64,000 nt of DNA from a virus (IMGVR_UViG_3300035498_000265:1-64000); one strand, 5' to 3'; counted from the stretch's first letter, positions 15,318-52,018 are shown. Notes: a model not told the origin generated them from the letters alone. Translations and numbers: made by a program.

Positions 15318-15323
15318 AAGTAG

Positions 15324-15513: not shown

Positions 15514-15627
15514 ATAAAGGAGCCCACTTACACCTTCACAGGCTGAGTGGGATAATGATTTAATCTTTGTATCTTTACATCGTAACAACAAATCACCACA
15601 ACAAAATGTCTTATAGTGTCTTATAAG

Positions 15628-19812: not shown

Positions 19813-19902
19813 ACAATTTGTAATGGTTGTAACGACGTTTAGGCATTTTAGTTAATTGGAATGTTAATATTAGTATTAACCTGTGAAGGCGAAGTACTAA
19901 CT

Positions 19903-19983
19903 GGAGATATTAATCATGGCTTAACACAGTGCAAATAGTCAATGAAATATTGGTTAATGTGAGTTCGATTCTCACTATCTCCG
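19903..19983 (+). ncRNA. Aberrant 81-nt tRNA-like element (perfect 7-bp acceptor and T-arm, no canonical anticodon arm)
   Basis: GGAGATA...TATCTCC acceptor, T-arm GTGAG-TTCGATT-CTCAC; only a mismatched candidate arm CATGG-CTTAACA-CAGTG. Confidence 0.35.
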
Positions 19984-20078
19984 CTTAAGCTTATACTATA
20001 TACAACAGACGATTTTAAGGTAATTGCTTGTGAAAGTATTTGCCTTTATCTTTGAGATTGGTTTTTAGTTAATATAAG

Positions 20079-20143
20079 AGTACATTAGTTTAATGGTAGA
20101 ATACAAGTTATTTGTGGTAAGAGTTCGACTCTCTTATGTACTC
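20079..20143 (+). ncRNA. Truncated 65-nt tRNA-like element
   Basis: Acceptor AGTACAT/ATGTACT, T-arm AAGAG-TTCGACT-CTCTT, D-like GTTT-AATGGTA-GAAT; only about 15 nt remain for the anticodon region. Confidence 0.3.
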
Positions 20144-20215
20144 CTCATGTGGTAATATTATTTAGAAATTGATATTTAATTGGATATACATTGTCTGAGA
20201 AGATAGTGTATAAAT

Positions 20216-20287
20216 GCTCTTATAGTTCAACGGATAGAATGTAGATTTCCTAAATCTGAGATGATGGTTCGATTCCATCTAGGAGTA
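20216..20287 (+). tRNA. tRNA-Arg (anticodon CCT)
   Basis: Acceptor GCTCTTA/TAGGAGT (two G-U pairs), D-arm GTTC..GAAT, anticodon arm TAGAT-TTCCTAA-ATCTG, T-arm GATGG-TTCGATT-CCATC. Confidence 0.6.
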
Positions 20288-20367
20288 CAAGCATATAATT
20301 ATAGAAATAAGAATTTCAAGAATTTCAATTCTAAAGTCTCGGTATGTGAATATAGAGACTTTTATAA

Positions 20368-20441
20368 GCATCAGTAGCTCAGTTGGATAGAGCAACAGTC
20401 TTCTAAACTGTGGGTCATGAGTTCGAGTCTCATCTGATGTA
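20368..20441 (+). tRNA. tRNA-Arg (anticodon TCT), second copy
   Basis: Acceptor GCATCAG/CTGATGT, D-arm GCTC-AGTTGGATA-GAGC, anticodon arm ACAGT-CTTCTAA-ACTGT, T-arm ATGAG-TTCGAGT-CTCAT. Confidence 0.7.
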
Positions 20442-20476
20442 CAATTAACTTTAATAAACAAATCAACACAAGAGCA

Positions 20477-20794
20477 ATGAAATGTATTTTTACAGAACAA
20501 GAAGATGCTTTGATTAAGAAAATCCCTGAGAAGCATCTAGGTAATCTCTCTAAAGGCTTTAGAGAGTTAGGCGAACAACTTGGTAGAAGTCCTCAATCTA
20601 TTTCTAGTAGATATTATTATCTTAAGAAGAAGGACAAAAACCAAGGTAACTATAGTTTTATGGTTATCTCTAACAAGCAATTAATTGGTGATAGGAAAAT
20701 AGTACGAGAAAATTGTCCTATAAGACCTATTAAATCCAAAAGAACATGGTTGAAAAATATCCTCGATAGATTATTTGGCAAGAAGGATAAGTAG
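20477..20794 (+). CDS. Small basic DNA-binding-like protein (HTH/Myb-like?), 105 aa; ends at TAG with TAA 8 codons downstream
   Basis: Track ORF; stop codon TAG at 20792-20794 followed by in-frame TAA. Confidence 0.45.
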   Translation: MKCIFTEQEDALIKKIPEKHLGNLSKGFRELGEQLGRSPQSISSRYYYLKKKDKNQGNYSFMVISNKQLIGDRKIVRENCPIRPIKSKRTWLKNILDRLFGKKDK

Positions 20795-21032
20795 TTTAAA
20801 TTATGGAAAAAGTAGTAAAGGTAACTTTCCTAACCGAAGAAAGCCGAGTGTAAAGCACTCCCCCGTATAAGTCTTAAGCCGAAATACTGGCCCCTCATTA
20901 TTTAGAGGCTGGAGGTACAGTAGGAAATAGCAACATTTTTAGGGCTTTGCACTCTCCATAATAATATTAAATTACCAAATACTTATTGTCTAAGAGGTTA
21001 GATGAGCTCAGATTATTCTCTAGTATATACTA

Positions 21033-21391
21033 GGAGTATTTCTGGGCTCTATATTTGGGGTATCATGGTATTGATTGCATATGTATTAGTAGAAGAACAT
21101 GGGGAGGGCATACTCCTAAAATAGCAAACTAAATTTAAACGCAGACACTTATACTACTGCATATGATATGGCTGCTTAAGCCTATCATCGAGTAGCACTT
21201 ACTTTGGAACAGAAAGGTGCAAACACAAACTTCTACAATAATATAAGTAGAATAGATTTCTCTGTTAGATTAAATAGAGTGGTGGAAGACTTCTGGTCAA
21301 CCTTGTGAATAAAACACATTAAAATTGAAAACTATGTATAATTCTTTTATTATGAGTGTGTAAGACGAGGGTTCGACTCCCTCATACTCCA
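21033..21391 (+). ncRNA. ssrA: tmRNA (ssrA-like), about 359 nt, tag peptide A-DTYTTAYDMAA
   Basis: 5-prime GGAGTAT-TTCTGGG... pairs with 3-prime ATACTCC-A following the T-arm GAGGG-TTCGACT-CCCTC; internal frame GCA GAC ACT TAT ACT ACT GCA TAT GAT ATG GCT GCT TAA at 21141-21179; no protein ORF on either strand. Confidence 0.75.
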
Positions 21392-21421
21392 CTAAAACTC
21401 AATTAACTTAAAACCCAGATT

Positions 21422-21892
21422 ATGGAACAAGAACTTAAAATCCCAGAAGGTTGGGAATTTTCTAGAGTAGAGGGTGATAAGATTATCCTCAAAGAAGGAA
21501 GACCTAAGACATGGGAAGACTGTGTTAAAAAAGTAGGCAGTAAAAATCTTGCATATATAAGTAGTGAATCTCAAATCTTAGAGTACAGTCACAAAGAAAG
21601 AGGCTTCATTAAAGAAGCCTTTGATAGTAATCTACTTCCTAAAAAGTATGTACAGCCGATGCTAGCTTTAGCAAAGTTGCTAGTATGCTATAAGGCATGG
21701 GCTAATACTTATGTACCTGATTGGACTAACCCTACACATGATAAATATGGTGTCTGTGTAATTGAAAATAGGCTAAGGGTAGTTAAAAGTGAATTTACTA
21801 GTAAATTATTTACATTCTCCTCTGAGAGCAAATGTAAAGAGTTCCTAGCAGCATTTGAAAGCTTACTTGAACAAGCTAAGCCTTTACTATAA
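21422..21892 (+). CDS. Hypothetical 156-aa protein, paralog A of a tandem pair
   Basis: Track ORF; shares LALAKLLVCYKAW...EQAKPLL with the 22110 ORF. Confidence 0.55.
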   Translation: MEQELKIPEGWEFSRVEGDKIILKEGRPKTWEDCVKKVGSKNLAYISSESQILEYSHKERGFIKEAFDSNLLPKKYVQPMLALAKLLVCYKAWANTYVPDWTNPTHDKYGVCVIENRLRVVKSEFTSKLFTFSSESKCKEFLAAFESLLEQAKPLL

Positions 21893-21936
21893 GGTGGATA
21901 AGTTATAAGAACAAATTGAATTAGGACTTATAGACA

Positions 21937-22104
21937 ATGAGTAATTCAAGTATAAAACACCTTATGACTACCTCTACAAATAAACCTCAATATTTACTTA
22001 CTGAGAAAGATGTTAAAGAACTTGATAAGTTAGTAAAACATGGATGGTTTATTAAACTAAAAGCTGGTTATCGTTATGTAAGATTTAAGATTAATCATAT
22101 TTAA
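21937..22104 (+). CDS. Small basic 55-aa protein
   Basis: ATG...TAA frame MSNSSIKHLMTTSTNKPQYLLTEKDVKELDKLVKHGWFIKLKAGYRYVRFKINHI. Confidence 0.3.
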   Translation: MSNSSIKHLMTTSTNKPQYLLTEKDVKELDKLVKHGWFIKLKAGYRYVRFKINHI

Positions 22105-22109
22105 AGATT

Positions 22110-22592
22110 ATGAACATAAAAGAAATAACCCTCCCTGATAGTTGGATAATAGATAAACAAGAAGGTAATAAACTTATCTTGAAAGAAGATTTGACTAAGT
22201 TAAACACTTGGGAGAGTTGCTTTGATAAACTTTTTTCAGAACAGGGTTTAAGGGTCATTGACTCTGAAGGATTTTTTGCTCTTCCTCATGTTAAAATGAA
22301 ACATAAATCTGTTGGGAAGACCATAATTCCAGTAGAGTATACATACTCAATGTTAGCTTTAATGCAGTTATTAGTTTGTTATAAAGCTTGGATTGGTGAT
22401 TGGAAACCTGATTGGGAGAATGATTGGGAGAGTGACCCATATAAATTTTATATTCGCGCAGATATGTACAGAATAACATTAGGTGCAACTAAAAATGAAT
22501 GGCACATATTCACTTTTCCAACTGAAGAAATGGCTAACAGATTCTTAGATACATTTAAAGCTTTATTAGAGAAAGCAAAACCGTTATTATAA
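22110..22592 (+). CDS. Hypothetical 160-aa protein, paralog B
   Basis: Track ORF; C-terminus ...LLEKAKPLL and core ...LLVCYKAW... match paralog A. Confidence 0.55.
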   Translation: MNIKEITLPDSWIIDKQEGNKLILKEDLTKLNTWESCFDKLFSEQGLRVIDSEGFFALPHVKMKHKSVGKTIIPVEYTYSMLALMQLLVCYKAWIGDWKPDWENDWESDPYKFYIRADMYRITLGATKNEWHIFTFPTEEMANRFLDTFKALLEKAKPLL

Positions 22593-22596
22593 AAAA

Positions 22597-23214
22597 ATGG
22601 AAGAAAGAAATATAAAATTAACTCTTGAGAAGGCTAAAGAGTGGTATAACAGTGATAGTAAAGAACTCAAGGAAGTTGCTTTACAAGCCTTTACAAAAGA
22701 AGAGCTCACTAAAGAGCCCTGGGAAAGAATTAAGACCTTTGAAGATGCTTGTAAATCACTGGGAATTGATTCTTCTTCACTAAATCTATTTGGCGGTTTT
22801 AGCCAAGATATAAGAGACCATCTTTTAGCTGTATATAAACTTGACACCATTAGGAGAGCTCTTAATGGTGATTGGAGGCCCAAACTAACTGAAGGTAAAG
22901 TGTATTACCCTTATGTAGCAATCTACAAGGAATCAGAAGATATTAATCCTAATGGTGCTAGAAGTAGGATTTGCTTTACTACTAACGGTTGTAAAAGGTG
23001 GAAGCTCGTTGGTGGTGCCTATAGCTATTGTGACGATGGGGTTGGCAGCTTCGGTGTGGGTTACGGTAGTGTTAGTGCTTATGCTGGCCTCCTCTGTTGT
23101 AAATCAATAGAAATTGCTAAGCACATGAGCTTGTATTTCCCTAAAGAAATATTTGAAGCTTGTTACTCTCATCTTGGACTTGTAATCTCGTGGGATAAGC
23201 AAGTTATGCTATGA
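22597..23214 (+). CDS. Hypothetical 205-aa protein with Gly/Cys-rich C-terminal segment
   Basis: Track ORF. Confidence 0.5.
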   Translation: MEERNIKLTLEKAKEWYNSDSKELKEVALQAFTKEELTKEPWERIKTFEDACKSLGIDSSSLNLFGGFSQDIRDHLLAVYKLDTIRRALNGDWRPKLTEGKVYYPYVAIYKESEDINPNGARSRICFTTNGCKRWKLVGGAYSYCDDGVGSFGVGYGSVSAYAGLLCCKSIEIAKHMSLYFPKEIFEACYSHLGLVISWDKQVML

Positions 23215-23392
23215 TAGTTTGAGTGAAGCATTTTAAGCTTACATTTATGTGAAGCAACGTAGCTCTTTATTAGTATCGTATTAGACTAACTGTAGTCTCT
23301 TGCAGGAGCTAAATAGAAGAGAGACAACAAGAGTATAATGCAATGTGGGAGGGGATGCTCTCCCCATTGCTTAACAATTAAATTCTCAAGAC

Positions 23393-24517
23393 ATGAAAGT
23401 ACCATCAATGATTTGGTTAAAGAATGGTAGAGAACTTAGCCAAGTCGAAGACTCAATACAAGTAATTGAGGAACTTCCTAAGAAGATATACACTCTGCAA
23501 AAGAAGCCATTATCGGGGGATTTATATTTAGAGGAATTTGCTGATGAGTTTAGTTTTAATTTCAAATTATATGGTATTGAGACTAGATTCATAGAACATG
23601 TTCTAAAGACATTTGAATCCACTAACACTAACTTAGGTGTCCTATTAAATGGTGTAAAGGGTACAGGTAAAACTATTACTGCTAAAATATTAGCTAATAA
23701 GATGAATTTACCTGTAATCCTAGTGAATGGTTATTACGAAGGATTGGCTGAATTTATAGCTAAAATTGAAAGTGATTGCATTTTATTCTTTGATGAATAT
23801 GAAAAAAGATTTGACAAAGAGAGGATGACTGACACTGACATTCTAGCTATAATGGACGGTGTCTTCAATAGCCCTCATAGGAGAGTATTCCTATTAACTA
23901 CCAATAGTCTCTATATTAATGATAATATGATTGGTAGACCATCAAGAATAAGATATAAGAAAACCTTTAGCAATCTTCCTCCTGAAATAGTTAAGGAATA
24001 CCTAGATGATAATTTGATTAACAAAGAGTATACCCAATCAATTATCTCTTATATTGACACTCTAGCTATCTCTACTATTGATATATTAAAAGCAGTAGTA
24101 GATGAATTCAATATCCATAATACTCCTTTGAGTGAATGGAAGAACTTCTTTAACACTGAACCTGCTAGATATACATGGTCTTGTTATGTATACAAGCAAG
24201 ATAGTGATGAAGAATTCTCTAAAGAAGAATTTAAAGAAAAGCTAAATATGCTAGGAACTCTTTATAAAACAAGTGAAGGTAAAGACGATATTTATGGCTT
24301 AGATGACCTTGACTTATGGTGCTCAACAGTGAGAACTAATGAGTCTATCTTTAGTTTAAGAGTAGGTGAAGACTTTGGTCAATATGGCACAATAGTTGAA
24401 GTACTCTTAGATGAAGGTATGGTCATTACTACTGATGATTATAACTCTACATACTATGCAAAGATACTTAATCTAGAAACTAAACCATCTCTATATAGAG
24501 GAGGTCTAGTATTCTAA
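23393..24517 (+). CDS. AAA+ ATPase
   Basis: Walker A GVKGTGKT and Walker B ILFFDEYE in the 374-aa track ORF. Confidence 0.6.
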   Translation: MKVPSMIWLKNGRELSQVEDSIQVIEELPKKIYTLQKKPLSGDLYLEEFADEFSFNFKLYGIETRFIEHVLKTFESTNTNLGVLLNGVKGTGKTITAKILANKMNLPVILVNGYYEGLAEFIAKIESDCILFFDEYEKRFDKERMTDTDILAIMDGVFNSPHRRVFLLTTNSLYINDNMIGRPSRIRYKKTFSNLPPEIVKEYLDDNLINKEYTQSIISYIDTLAISTIDILKAVVDEFNIHNTPLSEWKNFFNTEPARYTWSCYVYKQDSDEEFSKEEFKEKLNMLGTLYKTSEGKDDIYGLDDLDLWCSTVRTNESIFSLRVGEDFGQYGTIVEVLLDEGMVITTDDYNSTYYAKILNLETKPSLYRGGLVF

Positions 24518-24568
24518 AACCTTTTATCGCTAGGCTATCTTACCTCTCTAGGTAGTCTAGCATCGCTT

Positions 24569-24653
24569 GCCCTCATGATGGAATTGGTAGACATGAGAGA
24601 CTTAAAATCTCTTGGTCATTGTGACTGTATGGGTTCAAGTCCCATTGGGGGTA
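24569..24653 (+). tRNA. tRNA-Leu (anticodon TAA), type II
   Basis: Acceptor GCCCTCA/TGGGGGT, Leu-type D-arm GGAATTGGTAGAC, anticodon arm AGAGA-CTTAAAA-TCTCT, variable hairpin GTCA-TTG-TGAC, T-arm ATGGG-TTCAAGT-CCCAT, discriminator A. Confidence 0.75.
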
Positions 24654-24674
24654 CTACCTTAGGAATTTAAATCT

Positions 24675-25378: not shown

Positions 25379-25582
25379 TATAAGATTATGAAGACTGCTT
25401 ACATTCTAGTTGCATGGTTTGTCATAGCTATATTGACTATCAATTTTAGCATAGACTTAATCAATGCTGCAAATACTATTTCTAATATAGTAGGATTATT
25501 CTTACTATTAACGGTGATAGTAGTATCAATTAAAACAAATTGCTTTTTACATCTAACAAAATTAATAAAACCAAGAAAATGA
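25379..25582 (+). CDS. Membrane protein of about 67 aa (two transmembrane helices)
   Basis: Internal ATG of track ORF 25310-25582 (MKTAYILVAWFVIAILTINF...); the upstream part of the track ORF overlaps the previous gene. Confidence 0.35.
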   Translation, partial: YKIMKTAYILVAWFVIAILTINFSIDLINAANTISNIVGLFLLLTVIVVSIKTNCFLHLTKLIKPRK

Positions 25583-26361
25583 AAAAGAAATTTATTATTG
25601 GCCTTATAGGTCTTTTTGTTTGCATGGGTGTATGCTCATGTGAAAGGATTGACGCTGGCCATGAAGGAATCAAAGTTAATCTCTATGGAGATGACAAAGG
25701 TGTTGGAGAAGTGTCTATGTGCACAGGTATGGTGTGCTATAACCCATTTACAACTGCAATCTATGAGTACCCAACATTCGTACAAACTGTAGACTATGAG
25801 CCCTTTACTATCAATGCAAAGGATGGCTCAGAGTTTACTGTAGACCCAACTGTCTCATTGAAGATTGTTGACGGTAAATCACCTGCTGTATTTAAGAAAT
25901 ACAGGAAAGAGCTAAAAGATATTATTAATGGAACTCTATATAATTATGTAAAGAATGCATTTAGGATACAGCTGAATAACTTTACTACTGATTATATTGT
26001 AAGTAACAGGGATTCTATTGAAAATGCTATTGAAAAGTATCTAGCGGCTGATTTGCTAAAAGAGAATTTTCAACTTGAGCAACTTACTTCTGGTCTCAAA
26101 TATCCAGAGACTATTGTCAAGGCTGTAAATGAGAAGAATAGAGCTATTCAAGAGGCCCAAAAAGCTCAGAATGAAGTAGCTGTAGCTGAGGCTCAAGCTA
26201 AGAAACTACTAGTAGCAGCTAATGCAGAGGCTGAAGCTAATAGACTTAAGCAACAAGCTCTTACTCCTCAAATCTTAGAGAAAATGTGGATAGAAAAGTG
26301 GGATGGTAAGTTGCCAGTCTATGGACAAGTCCCCACATTGTTTAAAGACATTACTAAGTGA
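25579..26361 (+). CDS. SPFH/band-7 (HflK/C-, stomatin-like) membrane protein with lipoprotein-like N-terminus
   Basis: Track ORF 25540-26361 trimmed to MKKKFIIGLIGLFVCMGVCSC; central SPFH-like region and Ala/Gln-rich coiled coil (AQKAQNEVAVAEAQAKKLLVAANAEAEANRLKQQAL). Confidence 0.5.
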   Translation: MKKKFIIGLIGLFVCMGVCSCERIDAGHEGIKVNLYGDDKGVGEVSMCTGMVCYNPFTTAIYEYPTFVQTVDYEPFTINAKDGSEFTVDPTVSLKIVDGKSPAVFKKYRKELKDIINGTLYNYVKNAFRIQLNNFTTDYIVSNRDSIENAIEKYLAADLLKENFQLEQLTSGLKYPETIVKAVNEKNRAIQEAQKAQNEVAVAEAQAKKLLVAANAEAEANRLKQQALTPQILEKMWIEKWDGKLPVYGQVPTLFKDITK

Positions 26362-26672
26362 TAGAAGTATTTTACCTAATAGGCTTAGTCACCCTTTTAA
26401 TACAGCTATATGTATTAAAACATACTAAGTATGTTTATACATATGGCTCTTTTAAGAAGAGTGATGAGGAGAACTTAAAGCCTATAAGTATCCCAGTATG
26501 GCATGTAATAGTAGCAATTCTTATAGTATGTATACCTTACGTTGGTGTTATTCTTGAAAATTTGTTTTTCACTCTACGCTGGGTAATTAAGTATGCTGAT
26601 ATAAAAGATGACTACCGTTCATACTATGTCTATTGGAGACTCAGAGACTCATTTTTAACTAAATCAATTTAA
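26358..26672 (+). CDS. Membrane protein, 104 aa
   Basis: Track ORF; two hydrophobic segments. Confidence 0.4.
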   Translation: MIEVFYLIGLVTLLIQLYVLKHTKYVYTYGSFKKSDEENLKPISIPVWHVIVAILIVCIPYVGVILENLFFTLRWVIKYADIKDDYRSYYVYWRLRDSFLTKSI

Positions 26673-27193
26673 TGAAAAAGCTAATCATAGTTCTAAAGAC
26701 TATAATCCCAATAGGTGCAATGCTATCATTCATAATCTACATGTGCACGTTAGAGAGTAAAAGCAATAATCACACACCTACTGAGGAAATAGCTTTAGAT
26801 TCTATACCCACTACTCCTAAGTTCTTCTCACAATCTCCTAGTGAAGGCTTATGGGATGCTTTAATTTACTATGAAATTCAACACCCTGAGATAGTATATG
26901 CTCAAGCTGTACTAGAAACAGGGCACTTTAAATCAAAGGGTTGTAATGAACATAACAACCTCTTTGGTTTATATAATAGTAAAAAGAAAAGCTATCATAA
27001 GTTTAGTCACTGGACAGAAAGTGTGGTAGCTTATAGAGAGTGGATTCAGTATAGGTATAGGTCTCCCACTAACTATTATGAGTTCTTGGAATCTATACAT
27101 TATGCCGAGGACAAAACATATACAACTAAATTAAAAAAGATTGTAAGTAATGGCAAAGTTAAGCAAGATGCAAGCCCAAGCTGTCATCAATAA
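26672..27193 (+). CDS. Signal-anchored glucosaminidase-domain peptidoglycan hydrolase (endolysin-like)
   Basis: N-terminal transmembrane segment; motif AQAVLETGHF...NNLFGL typical of mannosyl-glycoprotein endo-beta-N-acetylglucosaminidase (FlgJ-type) domains. Confidence 0.5.
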   Translation: MKKLIIVLKTIIPIGAMLSFIIYMCTLESKSNNHTPTEEIALDSIPTTPKFFSQSPSEGLWDALIYYEIQHPEIVYAQAVLETGHFKSKGCNEHNNLFGLYNSKKKSYHKFSHWTESVVAYREWIQYRYRSPTNYYEFLESIHYAEDKTYTTKLKKIVSNGKVKQDASPSCHQ

Positions 27194-32515: not shown

Positions 32516-33522
32516 TGGCATTTAGCTCTGGAAAACCTTCAGTAAGTTTGCAAGATATTCTAAGAATAGTCTCTGAAGCAGACATTGCTGCGCATTACCT
32601 AGGAATATCAAGTATTCCTTGTGTAATGCAAAGCCCTTTAAGACAAGATAATCATCCCTCATTTGGTATTTATTCACCAGATGGTACAGAAGTTAACTAC
32701 ATAGATTTCTCCACACATGAAGGTGGTAGGATTCTCACCCTCCTACAAAAGATGTGGGGAACAGACTATGAGGAAACTTGCTACAGAGTATATAAAGAGT
32801 TTGCCGAGCGCAGAGTGCATCCATTAGTAGGAATTAAGACCTCAGGAGTGCCAATCAGGAAGTCTGGCCCTAGTGATGTTAAGATGGAATGTCGTGTAAG
32901 AGAGTGGCAAGCTTATGATATTGCTTATTGGGAGTCTTATGGGATTTCATTAGAATGGCTTAAATATGCTGAGGTTTATCCCATATCTCATAAAATCATT
33001 GTTAAAAACAATGAGAGATATGTATTTGGAGCTGATAAATATGCCTATGCTTATGTTGAACATAAGGATGGCATCGTCACACTTAAAATATACCAGCCCT
33101 TTAACAAGGCTGGTTTTAAGTGGTCGAGCAAACATGACAAATCTGTAATTAGCCTATGGTCTAAAGTCCCATTGGAAGGAGATAAAATTTGTATATGCTC
33201 ATCATTGAAGGATGCACTGTGCCTATGGTCTAATACAGGTATCCCTGCCCTCGCTATTCAAGGTGAGGGGTATCCCATCAGTGAGTCCGCAGTTAATGAA
33301 CTAAGAAGACGTTATAAAGAGATTTATATATTGCTAGATAACGATACAGCGGGTTTAAAAGATGGCGTATCTCTAGCAAGTTCTACTGGTTTTATTAACT
33401 TAATTCTTCCTCAATTTGAGGGGGGTAAGGACGTCAGTGATTTATATAAAGTCAAAGGTAGAGATACCTTTTTAAAAACTATCTTACCCTTATTTAATAA
33501 CAATAAACACTTACAACAATGA
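32500..33522 (+). CDS. DnaG-like primase (zinc-binding N-terminus plus Toprim domain)
   Basis: HPSFGIY zinc-ribbon-like motif; Toprim motifs E...YILLDNDTAG...GKD. Confidence 0.55.
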   Translation: MVSTIMAFSSGKPSVSLQDILRIVSEADIAAHYLGISSIPCVMQSPLRQDNHPSFGIYSPDGTEVNYIDFSTHEGGRILTLLQKMWGTDYEETCYRVYKEFAERRVHPLVGIKTSGVPIRKSGPSDVKMECRVREWQAYDIAYWESYGISLEWLKYAEVYPISHKIIVKNNERYVFGADKYAYAYVEHKDGIVTLKIYQPFNKAGFKWSSKHDKSVISLWSKVPLEGDKICICSSLKDALCLWSNTGIPALAIQGEGYPISESAVNELRRRYKEIYILLDNDTAGLKDGVSLASSTGFINLILPQFEGGKDVSDLYKVKGRDTFLKTILPLFNNNKHLQQ

Positions 33523-33734
33523 AGTTCGGAAAACTTTTCAAAAAACTTATTGCAATTCACCCTGAATTTGCAAATCTTTCAGCAAACAGATTTTCAGCCC
33601 TCACTTATAAAGAACTGAGGAGCATTGCTAAAGTACTCTATAGACCTGCTAATCCTGGCAGATTGACTTGGTACATGAGGCAAAATCATGACACACTTGC
33701 TAAAAGTGTATACAGTACTTTGATGGACTGGTAA
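33519..33734 (+). CDS. Small basic 71-aa protein
   Basis: Track ORF. Confidence 0.4.
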   Translation: MKFGKLFKKLIAIHPEFANLSANRFSALTYKELRSIAKVLYRPANPGRLTWYMRQNHDTLAKSVYSTLMDW

Positions 33735-33785
33735 GCTTTAATTATAATAGGGAGTCTTAGGACTCCCTTAACTGTTTTTTTTTGT

Positions 33786-34577
33786 ATGAAAAAAGAAAAA
33801 CACTTAATAGTTAGGTCTAGGAATACAACTTGCTCTCCCTTAAAAGAGATAGTTGTTCCTAGTACTACTATACTGCGATTGGGTAGTACAACTCCCACTG
33901 AAAAAATCACCAAAAGACCTAACCCTATTGAGATAAATACAGCAGAAGCCTGTGCTATATCAGGTGATAAAGAGCTAATGAGAAAAGCTTTTATTGAAAA
34001 CAATATACCTATTGCAGAAGGAATTCATACTGATGACATTAATAAGGTTATTGAGTTCATGCTAAAGCAGGATAGCTCTATTATATGTAAGCATATTCAC
34101 TCTAGTAAAGGCAAGGGTATTTACTTATTTAAGTCTAGAGAAGAGCTCCTAGAGTGGAGTAAAAACCATGATGTAAATAAGCATATCTTTGAAAGGTATT
34201 ATACTTATACTAGAGAATACAGGCTTCATGTAACCAAAGATGGTTGCTTCTATGCATGTAGAAAGATGCTCAAACATGATGCAGATGTTAGATGGCATAG
34301 GCATAATGTTAACTCAGTGTGGTTTGTAGAAGAGAACCTTCTCTTTGATAAGCCTACTAACTGGGATTCTATAGTAGAAGACTGTGTTAGAGCACTAGAA
34401 GCAATAGGCTTAGACATAGCTGCATTTGATATAAAAGTACAAAGTAGTCAGCATAAAAATCCTAAGTATATTATACTAGAGAGTAATAGTGCCCCCTCTC
34501 TTGGTGAGAAAGGCCTTTTAAAGTACAAAGAAACCTTAACTAAGCTCATAAATGGAAAAGAATTTTGCATTCACTAA
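33786..34577 (+). CDS. ATP-grasp fold ligase (RimK or glutathione-synthetase-like)
   Basis: HSSKGKGIYLF plus ILESNSAPSLGEKG ATP-grasp signature elements. Confidence 0.5.
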   Translation: MKKEKHLIVRSRNTTCSPLKEIVVPSTTILRLGSTTPTEKITKRPNPIEINTAEACAISGDKELMRKAFIENNIPIAEGIHTDDINKVIEFMLKQDSSIICKHIHSSKGKGIYLFKSREELLEWSKNHDVNKHIFERYYTYTREYRLHVTKDGCFYACRKMLKHDADVRWHRHNVNSVWFVEENLLFDKPTNWDSIVEDCVRALEAIGLDIAAFDIKVQSSQHKNPKYIILESNSAPSLGEKGLLKYKETLTKLINGKEFCIH

Positions 34578-35322
34578 CTTCTGCACAATCTATTCTTCTA
34601 AAGGCAATACACCTAACAACCTTAGAGAACGAGCTTGCTTTAGTGATATATTCTATAGTGAGTATAATGGAGTTGTGCAAAAGAACACTTATGAAGTCAC
34701 TTTATATAAATTAGGTGATACACTCAATAAAGAACGTAAGAATAATGCCTGCTTATTAGATAAGCGAGGTATAATTCGTCACTTAAAGATTCTACAATCA
34801 GTATTTAAATTCAGCTGGCATCTAAAAGAGGATGGTGATGATAAATATATCTTAACACTAACTCTTGATGGAGACCTCATTTATCACAAATATCTTCTTA
34901 CCTGGGTAAGGTACTTATATGAATTTCCATTTAATGTATTCTTACTTGACGCAATTAACCTGAAAAAACTACCTGAATTTAAATTTGAATCAATCATTAA
35001 TTTATTTAATGTGGCAGGAGCTACCTCTGGTATTAATAGACATGGATGTGATATTCATGCCATAGGAGCTACCTATACCTTCAAGCAACTATATACAATT
35101 AAGGAAACCAAGAGTTCCCTTAAAAGTTTAGAGGGAGGCCATACTAGACTTAATAATACCTTCCTTTATGTTGAAGATGAAGATAACCTTAAACAATTTA
35201 ACAAGACATTAAAAGACAATGTTGACAGTTTAGAATTTTGGAGTTCAGATGAATGGTTCACAAAGAGACTGCCACTGTATAAAGAAAATTACAAGATTTT
35301 AAAGAAATTACAAGCAAAATGA
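34552..35322 (+). CDS. Hypothetical 256-aa protein in the modification cluster
   Basis: Track ORF. Confidence 0.45.
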   Translation: MEKNFAFTNFCTIYSSKGNTPNNLRERACFSDIFYSEYNGVVQKNTYEVTLYKLGDTLNKERKNNACLLDKRGIIRHLKILQSVFKFSWHLKEDGDDKYILTLTLDGDLIYHKYLLTWVRYLYEFPFNVFLLDAINLKKLPEFKFESIINLFNVAGATSGINRHGCDIHAIGATYTFKQLYTIKETKSSLKSLEGGHTRLNNTFLYVEDEDNLKQFNKTLKDNVDSLEFWSSDEWFTKRLPLYKENYKILKKLQAK

Positions 35323-35957
35323 AAAAAGTATTTGTAGTGGGCACTGCCCTTAACTATGCTAGCTTCATTGATGATGCTACCTTGACATCTGACATGAGCG
35401 AAGCTGACATTGTTCTATTCACTGGAGGTGAGGATGTAAATCCTGCTTTGTATAAAGCACGAGTACATGATTCTACCTATTATAATAAAGACCGAGACAA
35501 GGCTGAGGTCTCAGTTTTCAAGAAGGTTAAGAAAAACCAATTAGCATTAGGCATTTGCCGAGGTTCACAATTCTTGTGTGTCATGAATGGTGGTAAATTA
35601 GTACAAGACTGTGGAGGTCATGGTTTATATGGCACTCATGGCATTACTAATGGTGAAATTGAGTATGAAATAACTTCTACTCACCACCAAATGCAATATC
35701 CCTATAACCTTGATAGCAATGACTACTCTCTCTTGTTTATTGCTAGTCCTGCTAGGAGTGGTAGGTATGAGGGTGATGGCATTGACCCTAATCCAATTAT
35801 TAGATATGGTGAACCTGAGATTGTGTTATATCACAAAGAGGGTAAACCTAAATGTCTTGCTATTCAAGGACACCCTGAAATCATGAGGGAGAATGCCCCT
35901 GTTATTGGTATGTTAAATGACCTTATTAACGAAACACTTAATTCTATTGAAAAATGA
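35319..35957 (+). CDS. Class-I glutamine amidotransferase-like / gamma-glutamyl hydrolase (peptidase C26-like)
   Basis: Nucleophile elbow LGICRGSQF and QGHPE His motif. Confidence 0.5.
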   Translation: MKKVFVVGTALNYASFIDDATLTSDMSEADIVLFTGGEDVNPALYKARVHDSTYYNKDRDKAEVSVFKKVKKNQLALGICRGSQFLCVMNGGKLVQDCGGHGLYGTHGITNGEIEYEITSTHHQMQYPYNLDSNDYSLLFIASPARSGRYEGDGIDPNPIIRYGEPEIVLYHKEGKPKCLAIQGHPEIMRENAPVIGMLNDLINETLNSIEK

Positions 35958-36748
35958 TTGCATTGGAAAATATTACTATAGGTGCAGACCCAGAGCTCTT
36001 CCTTATAAACAAAAAAACTGGTGAAGTAGTATCATCAATAGGTATTATACCTGGTGAAAAAGGCAACCCATACAGGAGTGAAGATATGCCTGAGGGCTAT
36101 GGCTTGGAGATTGATAACATCCTAGCTGAATTCAATATTCCTCCCGTTGATAATTTGGATGATTTTGTCAATGCTATTGACTACATGAAGAAATACATCC
36201 AGAAGTTTATCAAAGCTAAAGACAGTAACTTAGACATTCTTACTAAGGCCTCTATGATAGTTCCTGAAGACCAACTCCAGAGCCCTGAAGCTAAGTTATT
36301 TGGTTGCAGTGTGGACTATAATGCTTACACTCAAGAACCTAATCCTAAACCCAAAGGAGAAAGAACTAATCTTAGAAGTGCTGGTTTCCATATTCACATT
36401 GGCTATGCTAATAACAATGTTGAAAGCTCACTAGCTCTTATTAAATACCTTGATATGTATCTAGGTGTTCCCTCAGTATTAATGGATGCTGATGTTAAGA
36501 GAAGAAATCTTTATGGTAAAGCTGGCTGCTTTAGACTTACTCCTTATGGTCTTGAATATAGAGTCCTCTCTAGCTATTTCCTCTCAAACAAGAGAACTCT
36601 TAAATGGGTTTGGTCTGGCATTTGCAAAGCTATCAATGCATACAATGATGGTGAAGACTTTGCTGATGAAGACCTAGTTCAAAAGGCTATTAATGAGAGT
36701 GACAAATCAATTGCAACACAACTTATTAAAGATTATAATCTAGCATAA
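35954..36748 (+). CDS. Amidoligase (COOH-NH2 ligase, GCS2-like) family protein, copy 1
   Basis: GADPELFL...GFHIHIGY motif pattern of carboxylate-amine ligases. Confidence 0.45.
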   Translation: MIALENITIGADPELFLINKKTGEVVSSIGIIPGEKGNPYRSEDMPEGYGLEIDNILAEFNIPPVDNLDDFVNAIDYMKKYIQKFIKAKDSNLDILTKASMIVPEDQLQSPEAKLFGCSVDYNAYTQEPNPKPKGERTNLRSAGFHIHIGYANNNVESSLALIKYLDMYLGVPSVLMDADVKRRNLYGKAGCFRLTPYGLEYRVLSSYFLSNKRTLKWVWSGICKAINAYNDGEDFADEDLVQKAINESDKSIATQLIKDYNLA

Positions 36749-36749
36749 T

Positions 36750-38102
36750 ATGTGCGGAATTTTTGGTATAATCACCCCTAAACCTAGAAAGTTTGATGCT
36801 CGAGCTTTCTGTGTTTTGGGTGTTAACAATGACTCACGAGGAGGAGACTCGTGTGGTGTTTTCATCGACAAGAGATATGAATATGGCGTTAATGAGAACA
36901 AGATGTTCTACTCATTCTTTCCTAAAAGTAAAGTGCTTAATAGTACTCAGCGATGCCAAATTGCTCTAGGGCACTGTAGGAAAGCTTCAGTAGGAGCTAT
37001 AAATGAAGCTAACGCTCAACCAGTAGTAATTAAAGATGAACTAGGTGAAGTTAAATATGTTTTAATTCACAATGGCACTATCTTGAATTATGAGGCTTTG
37101 GCTAAGAAATATATCCCTGATGTAGATATTAAAGGCATGACTGACTCACAAGTCATGGCTAGAATATTTTACCATAAAGGCTATGATGTATTAGGTGAAT
37201 ACCTTGGAGCAGGTGCCTTTGTTATGGTTGACTATAGAGGTGAAGAGCCCTTAGTTCTACTCTTTAAGGGTGAATCTAAGTCCTCTCAATACTCTGTAAC
37301 AACTAGTGTAGAAAGACCATTATACTGCTCTTATAGTCAAAATGAGTTTATCTTCTCATCTATTATGGACTACCTTAAACCCCTACGTCCTAATAGAGAA
37401 GTGCTAACTCTCTCACCTAATTATCTACTCTGTCTCAAAGATGGTAGTTTATTCATAATTAAAGAATATGATAGAAAGTCATTATGGCAGACTCGAAGTT
37501 ATACTACCTATGCTAATAACACTGCTAGTACTTATACTCCTAGTAAAGTTCTTAGTGTAGTTAGAAATAGCTACAATGACTATGATGAGTTTGGCAATGG
37601 CTACTGGGATGATGCCATAGAGATGGACACAGATGGCTTATACTATGTAGGTGCAACTCTAGCTAATGGTACTTATTGGGTAGATGCTCTTGGTTCTATC
37701 AAGAGAAGAAAACTAGCTGGTACTATAGCAGTATCCTTTTGGATGGGAGTTCTACTCTATAATAGTGCCTGCTATAACTATCTTAGGGAGTTTGCTAAGA
37801 GCTATGGGTGCTCTCAAGATAACTTAGCTCTCTCTCTTCCTGACTTAGTTCATTATTTAAGTCCTATTCCATGGAGAACTAGTGACGGGACTTGGGTAAG
37901 GTCTGACAGTGCTCTAACTAATAAGCCTGTTACTGGCAGAGTTTTATTCCCATTTACAACAGAAAGCCTATGGATTTCAGGTGGTGCAGTTAGCTACTAC
38001 ACTGAGAATGTGCCCTATAGTGACACTATAAAAATATTAAAAGACAACGAAAATTATAAAATAGACGCAGATGCCATATCAAGAACGTTTGGGAAACATT
38101 AG
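36750..38102 (+). CDS. Class-II (Ntn) glutamine amidotransferase-like protein; ends at TAG with TAA 12 codons downstream
   Basis: N-terminus MCGIFGI (Cys2 nucleophile after Met removal); 450 aa. Confidence 0.5.
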   Translation: MCGIFGIITPKPRKFDARAFCVLGVNNDSRGGDSCGVFIDKRYEYGVNENKMFYSFFPKSKVLNSTQRCQIALGHCRKASVGAINEANAQPVVIKDELGEVKYVLIHNGTILNYEALAKKYIPDVDIKGMTDSQVMARIFYHKGYDVLGEYLGAGAFVMVDYRGEEPLVLLFKGESKSSQYSVTTSVERPLYCSYSQNEFIFSSIMDYLKPLRPNREVLTLSPNYLLCLKDGSLFIIKEYDRKSLWQTRSYTTYANNTASTYTPSKVLSVVRNSYNDYDEFGNGYWDDAIEMDTDGLYYVGATLANGTYWVDALGSIKRRKLAGTIAVSFWMGVLLYNSACYNYLREFAKSYGCSQDNLALSLPDLVHYLSPIPWRTSDGTWVRSDSALTNKPVTGRVLFPFTTESLWISGGAVSYYTENVPYSDTIKILKDNENYKIDADAISRTFGKH

Positions 38103-39513
38103 GCCTCAGGGAGGAGCTGCACAAGCCTATTATCATAATGTCAGAGTAAAAATTGATAATGGTCTTGTCGGCGCAGGAGGTTTAGCTATGGAAGACTGGG
38201 CTAGAAGGCGTAATCCAATGCCAGTGAAAAAGATTCTCGAGGAAACTAGAGAGCCTATAGATGATACAGAAGGCTATGTAAGAGGTGTTGTATATACCTC
38301 AGATAAATACATAGAGTATGGCTGGTTCAAAGAATCTACAGAAAATATCCTAGTAATGGTTAGGGGTGATACTCCTTTTGGTAGAAACCTCTACTCAGGA
38401 ATATCACGAGAAGCTCTATCTAACCTTGTATTTGCTAAAGGACTAGGCTATTATATCTTACCTGGAGACTATAGTGAGAAAGACTTGAATAAGCTCACTA
38501 GAGCTATGGGTCAAGGTAAATTTCCCTATGACTTTGACAAACACTATGAGGCTGCTGACAGTTTTAACTTGTTTAAAGATGCTCAAAAGGTCTTAAATGA
38601 AGTAGAGTATCCATTATCTAAAGAACTTAAGTATACTTTCGGACTTGAGTTTGAGACATCTATGGGCTATATCCCACAAGAGATATGCTATAGAGATGGT
38701 TTAATCCCATTAAGAGATGGCTCAATCACAGGTATAGAGTATTCAACTGTAGTTCTTGAAGGTAATAGGGGCTTAAATCTTCTTAAACAACAAGTATCAA
38801 CCCTTAAAGAGTACACTACTTTCAATAAGGAATGTGCTTTGCATATTCACTTTGGTGGTTATCCAGTAGACCCTGTAAGTATTATGGCTCTTTATGGTCT
38901 TTGGTATGCAGTTGAAAGAGACCTAGAGTCAAATTTATATGTTCCTAGTGATACTTTCAGAACTAGCAAATATAAAGCTAATGGAAAGGATTACTGCAAC
39001 AAGCTAACTGGCAAAAATAGCTTTGAGCAACTATTTAGGTCTTTGACTGGACAAAGGTACTTTGGTAGTTTAGTTCAGCCACACCCTGCTGATGTTGAGA
39101 AAAGAGCTAAATGGAATATTAAAAGTAGGTATTTTGGTCTTAACCTTGTTAACATGGTATGTTATAAAGGCCCTAAGACTGTAGAATTTAGATTCCTAAG
39201 ACCTACCTTTAACTACAGAGTAATTACTCTGTGGATGTATGTTCTTAATGCTGTTCTTAGGGCTGCTGAAAGAATAGCTAATGAGTGGAGAGAAGAACAT
39301 TGTAACAATACTGAGGATATGACTTCTTATATCCTTAGTAGATGTTATGATGGCATCAAAGACTTATTAGCTAGAGCCTATGACGCAGAAACCTTCAATA
39401 AGTTAAGTAAGGAACTAGACTTATTGCAGAATGCCACTGAGCAGCAAGAGGCTAACGGAGACCATTGTGGCAGGGATACATTCTTCATAGATAATCTTCT
39501 GCATGACGATTGA
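38071..39513 (+). CDS. Amidoligase-like protein, copy 2
   Basis: CALHIHFGGYP motif analogous to HIHIGY of copy 1; 480 aa. Confidence 0.4.
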   Translation: MPYQERLGNIRPQGGAAQAYYHNVRVKIDNGLVGAGGLAMEDWARRRNPMPVKKILEETREPIDDTEGYVRGVVYTSDKYIEYGWFKESTENILVMVRGDTPFGRNLYSGISREALSNLVFAKGLGYYILPGDYSEKDLNKLTRAMGQGKFPYDFDKHYEAADSFNLFKDAQKVLNEVEYPLSKELKYTFGLEFETSMGYIPQEICYRDGLIPLRDGSITGIEYSTVVLEGNRGLNLLKQQVSTLKEYTTFNKECALHIHFGGYPVDPVSIMALYGLWYAVERDLESNLYVPSDTFRTSKYKANGKDYCNKLTGKNSFEQLFRSLTGQRYFGSLVQPHPADVEKRAKWNIKSRYFGLNLVNMVCYKGPKTVEFRFLRPTFNYRVITLWMYVLNAVLRAAERIANEWREEHCNNTEDMTSYILSRCYDGIKDLLARAYDAETFNKLSKELDLLQNATEQQEANGDHCGRDTFFIDNLLHDD

Positions 39514-51908: not shown

Positions 51909-52018
51909 TCTATTTACAGTAAATAATATTGTTATCTATAGCAATTTTTACTGTTAAAAGCTTGTTTAAACCAACAAAAATGCTTACCTTTGTAAAAATT
52001 TAATATAATTATGATTAT

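What the first reader, a model, noticed from the sequence alone, without database searches (positions are those of the whole stretch)
33786..39513. Amidoligase / ATP-grasp / double-amidotransferase enzyme cluster of unknown target
Six consecutive co-oriented genes encode an ATP-grasp ligase, an unknown protein, a class-I GATase/gamma-glutamyl-hydrolase-like enzyme (LGICRGSQF, QGHPE) and a COOH-NH2 amidoligase-like protein (GFHIHIGY). They also encode a class-II Ntn GATase-like protein (MCGIFGI) and a second amidoligase-like protein (ALHIHFGGYP). Such ligase and amidotransferase combinations have been predicted computationally to build peptide-like tags or modify metabolites or nucleotides. The cluster sits next to UDG, dUTPase, ThyX and NrdDG, so a DNA-base or nucleotide hypermodification pathway is one possibility. 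Protein tagging or a small-molecule product are others.
Basis: partly seen in the sequence, partly recalled or inferred. Interest (0 to 1): 0.7.

Follow-up and report, generated by a model that had tools for sequence, protein, structure and literature searches.

The report
Known phage amidoligase cassette, crAss-like version
Six tightly packed genes in this crAss-like gut phage encode three ATP-driven amide-bond ligases, two glutamine-amidotransferase-type enzymes and one orphan protein; this cassette was predicted in 2009 in many lytic phages, its target has never been tested, and nothing here points to DNA as that target.

Summary
Window 33786-39513 holds six co-oriented, overlapping genes:
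- a RimK-type ATP-grasp ligase
- an orphan protein
- a Peptidase_C26/class-I GATase
- a PF14395 COOH-NH2 ligase
- an Ntn class-II GATase with an orphan C-terminal domain
- a PF12224 Amidoligase_2

The cluster is not new. It is the phage "amidoligase / peptidoglycan-modification cassette" (Iyer/Aravind 2009; Hardies 2013). It is found in phiEco32-, LUZ24-, RIO-1- and Grimontviridae-type phages, and it is already annotated in crAss-like phage cr108_1. No experimental test of its function turned up.

The same gene order recurs in four more crAss-like contigs. A reduced version sits in cultured Cellulophaga phage phi14:2.

New context: the interval between primase and UDG is a swappable accessory slot. 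The closest known relative, cr116_1, carries rIIA/rIIB there. crAss001-type phages carry an E1 (ThiF) + JAB module.

No partner enzymes for DNA hypermodification were found. ThyX, dUTPase and UDG point to canonical thymidine.

Best reading: an early-expressed assembly line for gamma-glutamyl/amide bonds that acts on a host peptide, cell-wall precursor or amine, not on DNA. The target remains unknown. This is a new member of a known kind, of moderate interest.

The parts
33749..33785 (+). Terminator-like hairpin (AGGGAGTC-TTAG-GACTCCCT) followed by a T-run, directly before the ORF1 ATG. Probably the 5' boundary of the cassette transcription unit.
   Evidence: stem 33749-33768, 8 pairs; upstream sequence. 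This is a consensus match only, and the promoters of this phage are unknown.
33786..34577 (+). ORF1, 263 aa: RimK-type ATP-grasp carboxylate-amine ligase. Motifs seen: SSKGKG loop, FDIKV...ILESNSAP Mg/ATP motif.
   Evidence: PHROG 2599 1e-27. NCBIfam nearest are MptN/RimK/CofF alpha-L-glutamate ligases and cyanophycin synthetase. Pfam ATP-grasp hits are all below gathering score. An orthologue is present in 8 of 8 cassette-bearing phage lineages compared.
34552..35322 (+). ORF2, 256 aa: orphan protein of a crAss-like-specific family. Invariant residues are C29, R120 and E124, within a W-x-RYLYE-x-P motif. Probably an enzyme or adaptor; function unknown.
35319..35957 (+). ORF3, 212 aa: class-I GATase fold of the Peptidase_C26 / gamma-glutamyl-hydrolase type. 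The Cys nucleophile (GICRGSQF) and the His-x-Glu motif (QGHPE) are both present.
   Evidence: The nearest solved chains are Lin1909 (3fij) and a Pseudomonas 'probable glutamine amidotransferase' (7d4r). The nearest NCBIfam model is gamma-glutamyl-CDP-amidate hydrolase, and that hit is weak.
35954..36748 (+). ORF4, 264 aa: phiEco32-type COOH-NH2 ligase (GS/GCS2 fold). Hallmark motifs: DPE, LAEFNI, HIHIG, LEYR.
   Evidence: 3375 homologues in the metagenome protein set. Invariant residues across 8 lineages include E59, H146, H148, E201 and R203.
36750..38102 (+). ORF5, 450 aa: N-terminal Ntn class-II glutaminase domain. It has Cys2, RGGDSCG, GHCRKAS, HNGTIxNY and TDSQV, so all glutamine-binding motifs are present. 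This is followed by a disordered linker and a C-terminal domain of unknown fold. The gene ends in TAG.
38071..39513 (+). ORF6, 480 aa: Amidoligase_2 (GS-like fold; motifs FGLEFET, ALHIHFGG, VEFRF) with a variable N-terminal extension of ~145 aa.
   Evidence: PF12224 9e-9 over residues 162-393. 40% identical to cr108_1 gp_22626 over residues 145-433.

Best explanation
This is the crAss-like version of the conserved phage "amidoligase cassette". It is an accessory operon transcribed with the replication genes.

Its products form an ATP-driven assembly line for amide bonds. There are three carboxylate-amine ligases: one RimK-type ATP-grasp and two GS/GCS2-fold ligases. By family, each should activate a carboxylate as an acyl-phosphate and join it to an amine. 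There are also two cysteine-nucleophile amidohydrolases: a C26 gamma-glutamyl-hydrolase-type GATase1 and an Ntn GATase2. These either deliver glutamine-derived ammonia to amidate carboxylates, or trim gamma-glutamyl groups.

Together they would build and edit a short Glu/Gln-derived (gamma-glutamyl-type, possibly amidated) peptide-like adduct. The acceptor is in the infected cell's cytoplasm and is not nucleic acid. I rank the candidate acceptors as follows:
- a cell-wall precursor stem peptide, the literature's proposal, ~0.25
- a small amine or peptide metabolite, ~0.2
- a protein, ~0.2

The biological role is host takeover, superinfection exclusion or counter-defence, not genome chemistry.

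Shown here: the gene set, intact catalytic motifs, synteny, phage-restricted distribution and slot variability. Inferred: the chemistry (from family membership). The acceptor and the biological role remain unknown.
For: - Family assignments and intact active-site motifs for all five recognisable enzymes.
- The same families co-occur in eight phage lineages from at least five families: Crassvirales, Gordonclarkvirinae, Bruynoghevirus, Grimontviridae, Zobellviridae, and a Rhizobium phage. ATP-grasp, COOH-NH2 ligase, GATase2 and Amidoligase_2 are present in 8 of 8.
- Six-gene synteny in four further crAss-like contigs, and a reduced set in cultured phage phi14:2.
- The COOH-NH2 ligase is essentially phage-only. 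A degenerate motif scan of 185,579 species genomes gave 47 hits. Nearly all were MAG contigs, many about 40-50 kb or about 100 kb long (phage-genome size); the only isolate-genome hits were two scaffolds of about 1 kb.
- The literature identifies the cassette and proposes peptide or peptidoglycan modification, without experiments.
- The nearest characterised relatives are alpha-L-glutamate ligases (ORF1) and PuuD-type gamma-glutamyl hydrolases (ORF3).
- The cassette is dispensable and swappable. In the same primase-UDG slot, the closest relative cr116_1 has rIIA/rIIB, and crAss001-type phages have a ThiF(E1)+JAB module. That fits a host-interaction or conjugation role.
- A peptidoglycan hydrolase and an SPFH protein are encoded in the same block here. 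A PG hydrolase also lies near the cassette in two other lineages; this support is weak.
Against: - No substrate was identified.
- There are no signal peptides and no peptidoglycan-binding domains.
- Gene order inside the cassette is shuffled between lineages, so the ligase-GATase pairings are not fixed.
- GATase1 is absent from the phiEco32/LUZ24-type cassettes.
- ORF2 and the ORF5 C-terminal domain have no fold match, so two parts give no functional information.
- The ATP-grasp Pfam hits are below threshold.
- The slot argument is guilt by position only.
- GS-fold ligases are not known from peptidoglycan synthesis.
Confidence: 0.6

Rival explanations
1. DNA-base or nucleotide hypermodification. 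The ligases and amidotransferases attach or amidate an amino-acid-like group on a base or on a dNTP precursor, protecting the phage genome from restriction.
For: - The cassette lies inside the replication and nucleotide-metabolism block, and its last gene overlaps UDG.
- Amidoligase and amidotransferase Pfam domains have been seen next to thymidine-hypermodification genes in viral metagenome contigs (PMC8989533).
Against: - Pfam scans of the ORFs in 18-52 kb found no dUMP/dCMP hydroxymethylase, TET/JBP, 5-HMUDK, aGPT-Pplase, DpdA, Mom, glycosyl- or methyltransferase.
- ThyX, dUTPase and UDG indicate canonical T.
- In phiEco32-, LUZ24-, Klyazma- and Rhizobium-phage genomes the cassette sits among early genes.
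- DNA of LUZ24-like U17 was cut by 11 of 16 restriction enzymes.
- Sibling phages fill the same slot with rII or E1/JAB.
- Caveat: only 64 kb of the ~104-kb genome is visible, and several ORFs have no annotation.
Confidence: 0.07
2. Protein tagging. The GS-fold ligases (same superfamily as the Pup ligase PafA) and the RimK-type ATP-grasp attach Glu/Gln or a short peptide to side chains or C-termini of host or phage proteins. The GATase-fold enzymes, and GGCT where present, act as deamidases or de-conjugating enzymes.
For: - RimK-family similarity of ORF1.
- PafA/Dop belong to the carboxylate-amine ligase superfamily (established knowledge).
- The same genomic slot in crAss001-type phages holds an E1 (ThiF, matching CBASS Cap2 and BilD E1 models) plus a JAB peptidase, that is, a ubiquitin-like conjugation pair.
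- In Klyazma and RHph_I3_11, families of small proteins with protein-level-conserved C-terminal tails are interspersed in the cassette.
Against: - No tag-like small protein and no repeated C-terminal tail family exists in this window.
- The conserved 71-aa ORF upstream has a variable C-terminus.
- ORF4 and ORF6 matched no solved structure, PafA/Dop included, in a PDB sequence search.
Confidence: 0.2
3. Small-molecule gamma-glutamyl chemistry. Ligase and hydrolase pairs would work as in PuuA/PuuD, EgtA/EgtC or BtrJ/BtrG, using gamma-glutamylation to make, protect or destroy an amine. Candidates are a polyamine, a glutathione-like peptide amide, or an immune signalling molecule.
For: - The best matches of ORF3 are Peptidase_C26 and gamma-glutamyl-amide hydrolases.
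- ORF4 and ORF6 belong to the GCS2/GS-like superfamily.
- GGCT is an optional cassette member (L011, phi14:2, PhiCHU, Vp_R1).
- Weak hits of ORF1 and ORF5 to the NAGGN dipeptide-amide synthesis enzymes.
- An M42 peptidase lies next to the cassette in L013/L014.
Against: - All these similarities are distant and below the family cut-offs.
- No transporter or precursor-supply gene is linked to the cassette.
- No metabolite is known.
Confidence: 0.2

Closest known systems
Phage amidoligase / 'peptidoglycan modification' cassette of phiEco32, LUZ24/PaP3/PhiCHU, phiRIO-1, PA11, 7-11, CW02 (Iyer, Abhiman, Burroughs & Aravind 2009; Hardies et al. 2013)
   Same: It has the same enzyme families: PF14395 COOH-NH2 ligase, PF12224 Amidoligase_2, RimK-like ATP-grasp and Ntn GATase2, with GATase1/C26 in some lineages. 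It lies in the early/replication region of a lytic podovirus, and its target is equally untested.
   Different: The gene order is different. GGCT is absent from this window. The ~200-aa family found between the two ligases in other lineages is absent. The crAss-specific ORF2 family takes the place of the ~300-aa unknowns found elsewhere. The host is a Bacteroidota gut bacterium.
uncultured crAss-like phage cr108_1 (MT774385; Steigviridae, Pipoluvirus) gp_22632-22626
   Same: The cassette lies in the same position, between primase and UDG. It is already annotated there as ATP-grasp, amidotransferase, COOH-NH2 ligase and glutamine amidotransferase.
   Different: Amino-acid identity is only 31-52%. 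cr108_1 has two ORF2 paralogues where the window has one. Its Amidoligase_2 is annotated as hypothetical.
Two-component glutamine-dependent carboxylate amidation, e.g. MurT/GatD and AsnB1/LtsA acting on peptidoglycan stem peptides
   Same: An ATP-dependent ligase paired with a class-I or class-II glutaminase. A peptidoglycan stem-peptide carboxylate is a plausible acceptor. This comparison rests on established knowledge and is by analogy only.
   Different: The ligases here have the GS/GCS2 fold, not the Mur-ligase or AsnB PP-loop fold. The pairing is not conserved between lineages. No ammonia tunnel has been shown.
Gamma-glutamyl ligase/hydrolase pairs: PuuA/PuuD, EgtA/EgtC, BtrJ/BtrG
   Same: A GS/GCS2-like or ATP-grasp ligase is encoded next to a C26, Ntn or GGCT hydrolase.
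   Different: There is no orthology; the similarity is at superfamily level only. Those pathways act in cellular metabolism, whereas this cassette is phage-restricted.

Membership tests
Phage amidoligase cassette (Iyer 2009 / Hardies 2013) | PF14395 phiEco32-type COOH-NH2 ligase | tested here: met
   ORF4: Pfam 1.7e-14 (54 bits, cut-off 25); PHROG 3815 1e-69.
Phage amidoligase cassette (Iyer 2009 / Hardies 2013) | PF12224 Amidoligase_2 as a second GS-like ligase | tested here: met
   ORF6: Pfam 8.9e-9 (36 bits, cut-off 22); PHROG 2443 6e-16.
Phage amidoligase cassette (Iyer 2009 / Hardies 2013) | RimK-like ATP-grasp ligase | tested here: met
   ORF1: PHROG 2599 1e-27; groups with the ATP-grasp genes of all 8 lineages. 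Pfam and NCBIfam hits are below their curated cut-offs.
Phage amidoligase cassette (Iyer 2009 / Hardies 2013) | Ntn class-II glutamine amidotransferase | tested here: met
   ORF5: GATase_6 1e-14, GATase_7 4e-9; Cys2 and the Gln-binding motifs are conserved.
Phage amidoligase cassette (Iyer 2009 / Hardies 2013) | Gamma-glutamyl cyclotransferase (AIG2/GGCT). Frequent but not universal. | tested here: not met
   No GGCT in the 64-kb window by family HMM. GGCT is present in related crAss-like loci L011 and phi14:2. About 40 kb of the genome is not visible.
Phage amidoligase cassette (Iyer 2009 / Hardies 2013) | Modifies host peptidoglycan (the proposed function) | not testable with these tools
   This is a hypothesis in the literature only.
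Thymidine/pyrimidine DNA hypermodification clusters (5-HMUDK / aGPT-Pplase type) | Source of 5-hydroxymethyl pyrimidine (ThyA-like hydroxymethylase or TET/JBP), a 5-hmU DNA kinase, and aGPT-Pplase | tested here: not met
   None was found among the ORFs of 18-52 kb scanned with Pfam; the thymidylate synthase is ThyX. Limits: several ORFs had no hit, and the rest of the genome is unseen.
7-deazaguanine DNA modification (DpdA/QueC/Gat-QueC) | DpdA transglycosylase and preQ0 synthesis genes | tested here: not met
   No such Pfam families in the scanned ORFs.
Two-component glutamine amidotransferase | Catalytic Cys-His-Glu triad (class I), or N-terminal Cys with Arg/Asn-Gly/Asp glutamine-binding residues (class II) | tested here: met
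   ORF3 has GICRG and GHPE. ORF5 has MCG, GHCRKAS, HNGT and TDSQV, nearly invariant in 31 homologues.
Two-component glutamine amidotransferase | Fixed partnership with a synthase subunit, with ammonia channelling | tested here: inconclusive
   In this window the pairs are adjacent and overlapping (GAT1-ORF4, GAT2-ORF6). Across 47 other loci the neighbours are shuffled, and GAT1 is missing from phiEco32/LUZ24 types. No complex model was run.
Pup-like protein tagging (PafA/Dop) | Small tag protein with a C-terminal Gln/Glu encoded nearby | tested here: not met
   No candidate in the window. The 71-aa upstream ORF ends in a non-conserved tail.

The most novel reading that the evidence does not exclude
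The cassette is one of at least three interchangeable occupants of a single accessory slot (primase to UDG) in Steigviridae. The other two are an E1(ThiF)+JAB ubiquitin-like conjugation module and rIIA/rIIB. On this reading it acts as a conjugation or counter-defence system: it covalently marks or unmarks a host or phage protein, or an immune messenger, through gamma-glutamyl/amide bonds. It would use two protein folds with no known relatives, the ORF2 family and the GATase2 C-terminal domain.
Probability: 0.2. Interest if true: 0.75.

Novelty: new member of a known kind. Interest (0 to 1): 0.4.

Why it matters
The cassette is one of the most widespread enzyme modules in lytic phages with no assigned function. 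It has stayed untested since its prediction in 2009.

Three results here sharpen the question:
- It is common in crAss-like gut phages.
- It behaves as a dispensable, swappable accessory unit.
- The DNA-modification reading lacks support.

A cultured crAss-like carrier (Cellulophaga phage phi14:2) and tractable carriers (phiEco32-like Bas87, LUZ24) exist, so the question is directly testable. For this window itself the result is largely confirmatory.

Tried and rejected
- A nucleotide search of the region against 50,697 phage records gave no match, so only protein-level relatives exist.
- The Iyer 2009 and Hardies 2013 papers are not held in the library. Their content is taken second-hand from citing papers.
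- ORF5 C-terminal domain: the model is confident but has no fold match. I rejected the idea that it is a PRTase, SIS or AsnB synthase domain.
- PDB sequence searches for ORF4 and ORF6 found nothing.
- I considered reading GAT1+ORF4 and GAT2+ORF6 as obligate amidotransferase pairs. I downgraded this because neighbour relationships are shuffled elsewhere.
- A profile-based genome scan failed for lack of a conserved block. It was replaced by a degenerate DNA motif scan.
- I looked for a repeated-tail small-protein family in the window, like those in Klyazma and RHph_I3_11, and found none.
- The ORF5 TAG stop in a TAG-recoding phage: read-through would add only 12 codons, so I judged it unimportant.

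Full report
**What the window is.** The window is part of a crAss-like phage.
- Its family-A DNA polymerase is 75% identical to that of uncultured phage cr116_1 (Steigviridae, Asinivirinae), and 46-48% identical to IAS virus, cr108_1 and PhiCrAssBcn phages.
- The finding region has no nucleotide-level match among 50,697 phage records.
- Proteins identical to ORF2 and ORF4 occur on JGI and Logan metagenome contigs of up to 103,850 bp.
- The region from about 18 to 52 kb is a + strand replication block read in the standard code. The flanking late genes need TAG read-through.

**Observation check.** Their ends overlap or abut, and the last gene overlaps UDG by 11 nt. A terminator-like hairpin with a T-run (33749-33785) precedes ORF1.

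Profile searches confirm every assignment:

| ORF | Assignment | Evidence |
|---|---|---|
| ORF1 | ATP-grasp | PHROG 2599 1e-27; NCBIfam nearest MptN, RimK and CofF alpha-L-glutamate ligases plus cyanophycin synthetase; Pfam ATP-grasp families all below their cut-offs |
| ORF2 | unknown | no hit in any library |
| ORF3 | Peptidase_C26 / GATase | Pfam 1e-15; PHROG 3e-32 |
| ORF4 | PF14395 COOH-NH2 ligase | Pfam 2e-14; PHROG 1e-69 |
| ORF5 | class-II GATase, residues 1-240 only | GATase_6 1e-14 |
| ORF6 | PF12224 Amidoligase_2, residues 162-393 | Pfam 9e-9 |

The catalytic signatures are visible in the sequences:
- ORF1 has SSKGKG and ILESNSAP.
- ORF3 has GICRG and GHPE.
- ORF4 has DPE, HIHIG and LEYR.
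- ORF5 has Cys2, RGGDSCG, GHCRKAS, HNGT and TDSQV.
- ORF6 has GLEFET, HIHFG and VEFR.

PolA, a metallophosphatase and an aspartyl protease are also there.

**This cluster is already described.** A tblastn search with ORF4 finds 318 phage records, mostly phages of Pseudomonas, Escherichia, Vibrio, Aeromonas and Proteus.

I fetched seven loci and found the same families clustered in each: cr108_1, ECBP2, PhiCHU, Proteus phage 3H10_20, Klebsiella phage Klyazma, Vibrio phage Vp_R1 and Rhizobium phage RHph_I3_11. Clustering these seven loci together with the window, eight lineages in all, gave:
- ATP-grasp, COOH-NH2 ligase, GATase2 and Amidoligase_2 in 8 of 8 lineages.
- GATase1 only in the crAss, Klyazma and RHph types.
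- A ~200-aa unknown family in the other types.
- GGCT in some lineages.

The literature calls this a seven-gene "peptidoglycan modification cassette", or a module for making peptide bonds. It traces the idea to Iyer et al. 2009 and Hardies et al. 2013 (PMC5498523, PMC6256558, PMC10580990, PMC11945000, PMC3890496). The proposed roles are superinfection exclusion or preparing the wall for lysis. None of the papers I could search or read reports an experiment. In cr108_1 the genes already carry these names in GenBank.

**Distribution in crAss-like phages.** IMG/VR loci L008, L009 and L011 show the same order: ATP-grasp, ORF2, GAT1, COOH-NH2 ligase, GAT2, Amidoligase_2, lying between primase and UDG. 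L011 has GGCT in front. L010 shows the same order from ORF2 onward, but no ATP-grasp, primase or UDG was detected in it.

Cultured Cellulophaga phage phi14:2 carries GGCT, ATP-grasp, a COOH-NH2 ligase-like gene, GATase2 and an Amidoligase_2-like gene in the same slot.

The core ligase has 3375 homologues in the metagenome protein set. A degenerate motif scan of one genome per species, across 185,579 species, hit 47 contigs. Nearly all were MAG contigs, many about 40-50 kb or about 100 kb long (phage-genome size). No isolate chromosome was hit; the only isolate hits were two scaffolds of about 1 kb. The family is therefore essentially phage-restricted. Within those loci the neighbour order is shuffled.

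**The two uninformative parts.**
- Among viral models, ORF2 matches only the paralogue pairs of cr108_1 and ctelJ1. It also weakly matches a 290-aa GAP52 protein (K4F9T7). By length this is gp028, one of the two unknown genes immediately upstream of that phage's COOH-NH2 ligase; the identity was not confirmed by sequence. Sequence profiles do not link ORF2 to those unknowns.

**Mechanism.** By family, ORF1, ORF4 and ORF6 each form an amide bond from a carboxylate and an amine at the cost of ATP. This is established chemistry for ATP-grasp and GS/GCS2-fold enzymes.

ORF3 and ORF5 are cysteine amidohydrolases acting on glutamine or gamma-glutamyl amides. The closest solved relatives of ORF3 are PuuD-like proteins (3fij, 7d4r). 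Its best NCBIfam hit is a gamma-glutamyl-amide hydrolase. ORF5 keeps every residue that binds free glutamine.

Two sub-readings stay open:
- The GATases feed ammonia to the ligases, giving carboxylate amidation, as MurT/GatD or LtsA do on peptidoglycan.
- The GATases remove gamma-glutamyl groups installed by the ligases, as in the PuuA/PuuD, EgtA/EgtC and BtrJ/BtrG logic.

In either case the product is a short Glu/Gln-type peptide-like adduct. The acceptor cannot be read from the sequence.

**Against DNA hypermodification.**
- None of the enzyme families that start known base-modification pathways was found in the ORFs I scanned.
- ThyX, dUTPase and UDG indicate ordinary thymidine.
- In other lineages the cassette is not next to nucleotide-metabolism genes.
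- DNA of the cassette-bearing LUZ24-like phage U17 was cut by 11 of 16 restriction enzymes.

The one positive hint is that amidoligase and amidotransferase domains accompany thymidine-hypermodification genes in some metagenomic contigs (PMC8989533). Those clusters contain 5-HMUDK and aGPT-Pplase, which are absent here.

**New context: a swappable slot.** The flanking genes (primase, UDG, PD-(D/E)XK nuclease) are orthologous across Steigviridae. What lies between primase and UDG differs:
- cr116_1, the closest known relative, has rIIA-like and rIIB-like genes there.
- PhiCrAssBcn11 (crAss001-like), cr128_1, DAC15, cr111_1 and Dulem virus 41 each have five genes of matching sizes there. Where it could be identified, the module includes a JAB metalloprotease (a weak Pfam hit in PhiCrAssBcn11; 'metalloprotease domain' notes in cr128_1 and cr111_1) and a ThiF/E1 (PhiCrAssBcn11, cr111_1, Dulem 41). 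The PhiCrAssBcn11 ThiF matches the E1 parts of CBASS Cap2 and BilD models. The five DAC15 genes carry no annotation.

The cassette is therefore dispensable and interchangeable with host-interaction modules. One alternative occupant is also an ATP-dependent system that activates carboxylates and is paired with a peptidase. This is positional evidence only. It still favours an accessory host-interaction, conjugation or counter-defence role over genome chemistry.

**Verdict.** The cluster is a new member of a known, still uncharacterised kind.
- Confidence that it is an amide-bond assembly cassette acting on a non-nucleic-acid acceptor: about 0.6.
- Within that, cell-wall precursor about 0.25, protein about 0.2, small amine or peptide about 0.2.
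- DNA or nucleotide: about 0.07.

Noticed in passing
window 1-10000 (- strand) and 52004-64000 (+ strand): Late and structural genes are interrupted by in-frame TAG. Reading TAG through turns short ORFs into ORFs of 245-2669 aa (for example 5197-7617, 7677-9995 and 52004-60013). Reading TGA or TAA through changes nothing. The 18-52 kb replication block, cassette included, uses the standard code. This looks like the lifecycle-linked TAG recoding known from some crAss-like phages.
   Followed up: partly
window 13242-13330 (- strand), within the tRNA array 12877-15699: A tRNA with anticodon CUA (it would read TAG). It is 89 nt long with a long variable arm, and ARAGORN labels it 'Pyl'. It sits among 17 clustered tRNA genes; five more tRNA or tmRNA genes lie at 19743-24654. 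It is probably the suppressor for the recoded late genes. Its amino-acid identity was not determined.
   Followed up: no
window 21057-21394 (+ strand): A full-length tmRNA gene. Rfam RF00023 scores 73.7 bits, E 2e-27, matching model positions 1-374. ARAGORN predicts the tag peptide ADTYTTAYDMAA. A phage-encoded tmRNA in a stop-codon-recoding phage may be worth its own look.
   Followed up: partly
loci L065 (cr116_1), L066, L067, L069, L070, L071 versus window 33522-39503: The primase-to-UDG interval is a variable slot in Steigviridae. It holds the amidoligase cassette, or rIIA/rIIB (cr116_1), or a five-gene module. Where annotated or scanned, that module includes a ThiF/E1 (matching CBASS Cap2 and BilD E1 models in PhiCrAssBcn11) and a JAB peptidase. 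It is seen in PhiCrAssBcn11 (crAss001-like), cr128_1, cr111_1 and Dulem virus 41, and by matching gene sizes in DAC15. No paper describing the E1/JAB module in crAss-like phages was found.
   Followed up: partly
L005 (Klebsiella phage Klyazma) and L007 (Rhizobium phage RHph_I3_11), whole loci: Each phage has 12-14 small early ORFs (60-120 aa), several inside the cassette, that share a C-terminal tail. The tail is ...LENK in Klyazma and ...GD(T/R)E(D/E)DI in RHph_I3_11. Copies differ by synonymous codons, so the tail is conserved at protein level. Many of these ORFs begin with (F)KVGDRV. They could be ligase substrates or an unrelated early-protein family. No such family exists in the window.
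   Followed up: partly
window 25540-27193 (+ strand): An SPFH/Band_7 protein (25540-26361), a 104-aa ORF, and a Glucosaminidase-family peptidoglycan hydrolase (26672-27193) lie inside the replication block, 7 kb upstream of the cassette. Proteus phage 3H10_20 has a stomatin-like gene and a lytic transglycosylase just upstream of its cassette, and GAP52 has an endolysin there.
   Followed up: no
L013 / L014, 1221-3776 and 13454-14533: In another cassette-bearing contig (45 kb; the same sequence also sits at the end of a 342-kb ENA scaffold), an M42/M20 peptidase gene lies directly after the cassette on the opposite strand. PARG-like and NUDIX-like genes lie upstream.
   Followed up: no
window 21422-21892 and 22110-22592 (+ strand): Two adjacent ORFs of 156 and 160 aa have no family hit and share the same C-terminal ending (...LLEQAKPLL and ...LLEKAKPLL). 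They are probably tandem paralogues.
   Followed up: no
window 38100-38102: The GATase2 gene ends in TAG, the codon that is read as sense in the late genes. Read-through would add 12 residues, up to 38138.
   Followed up: partly
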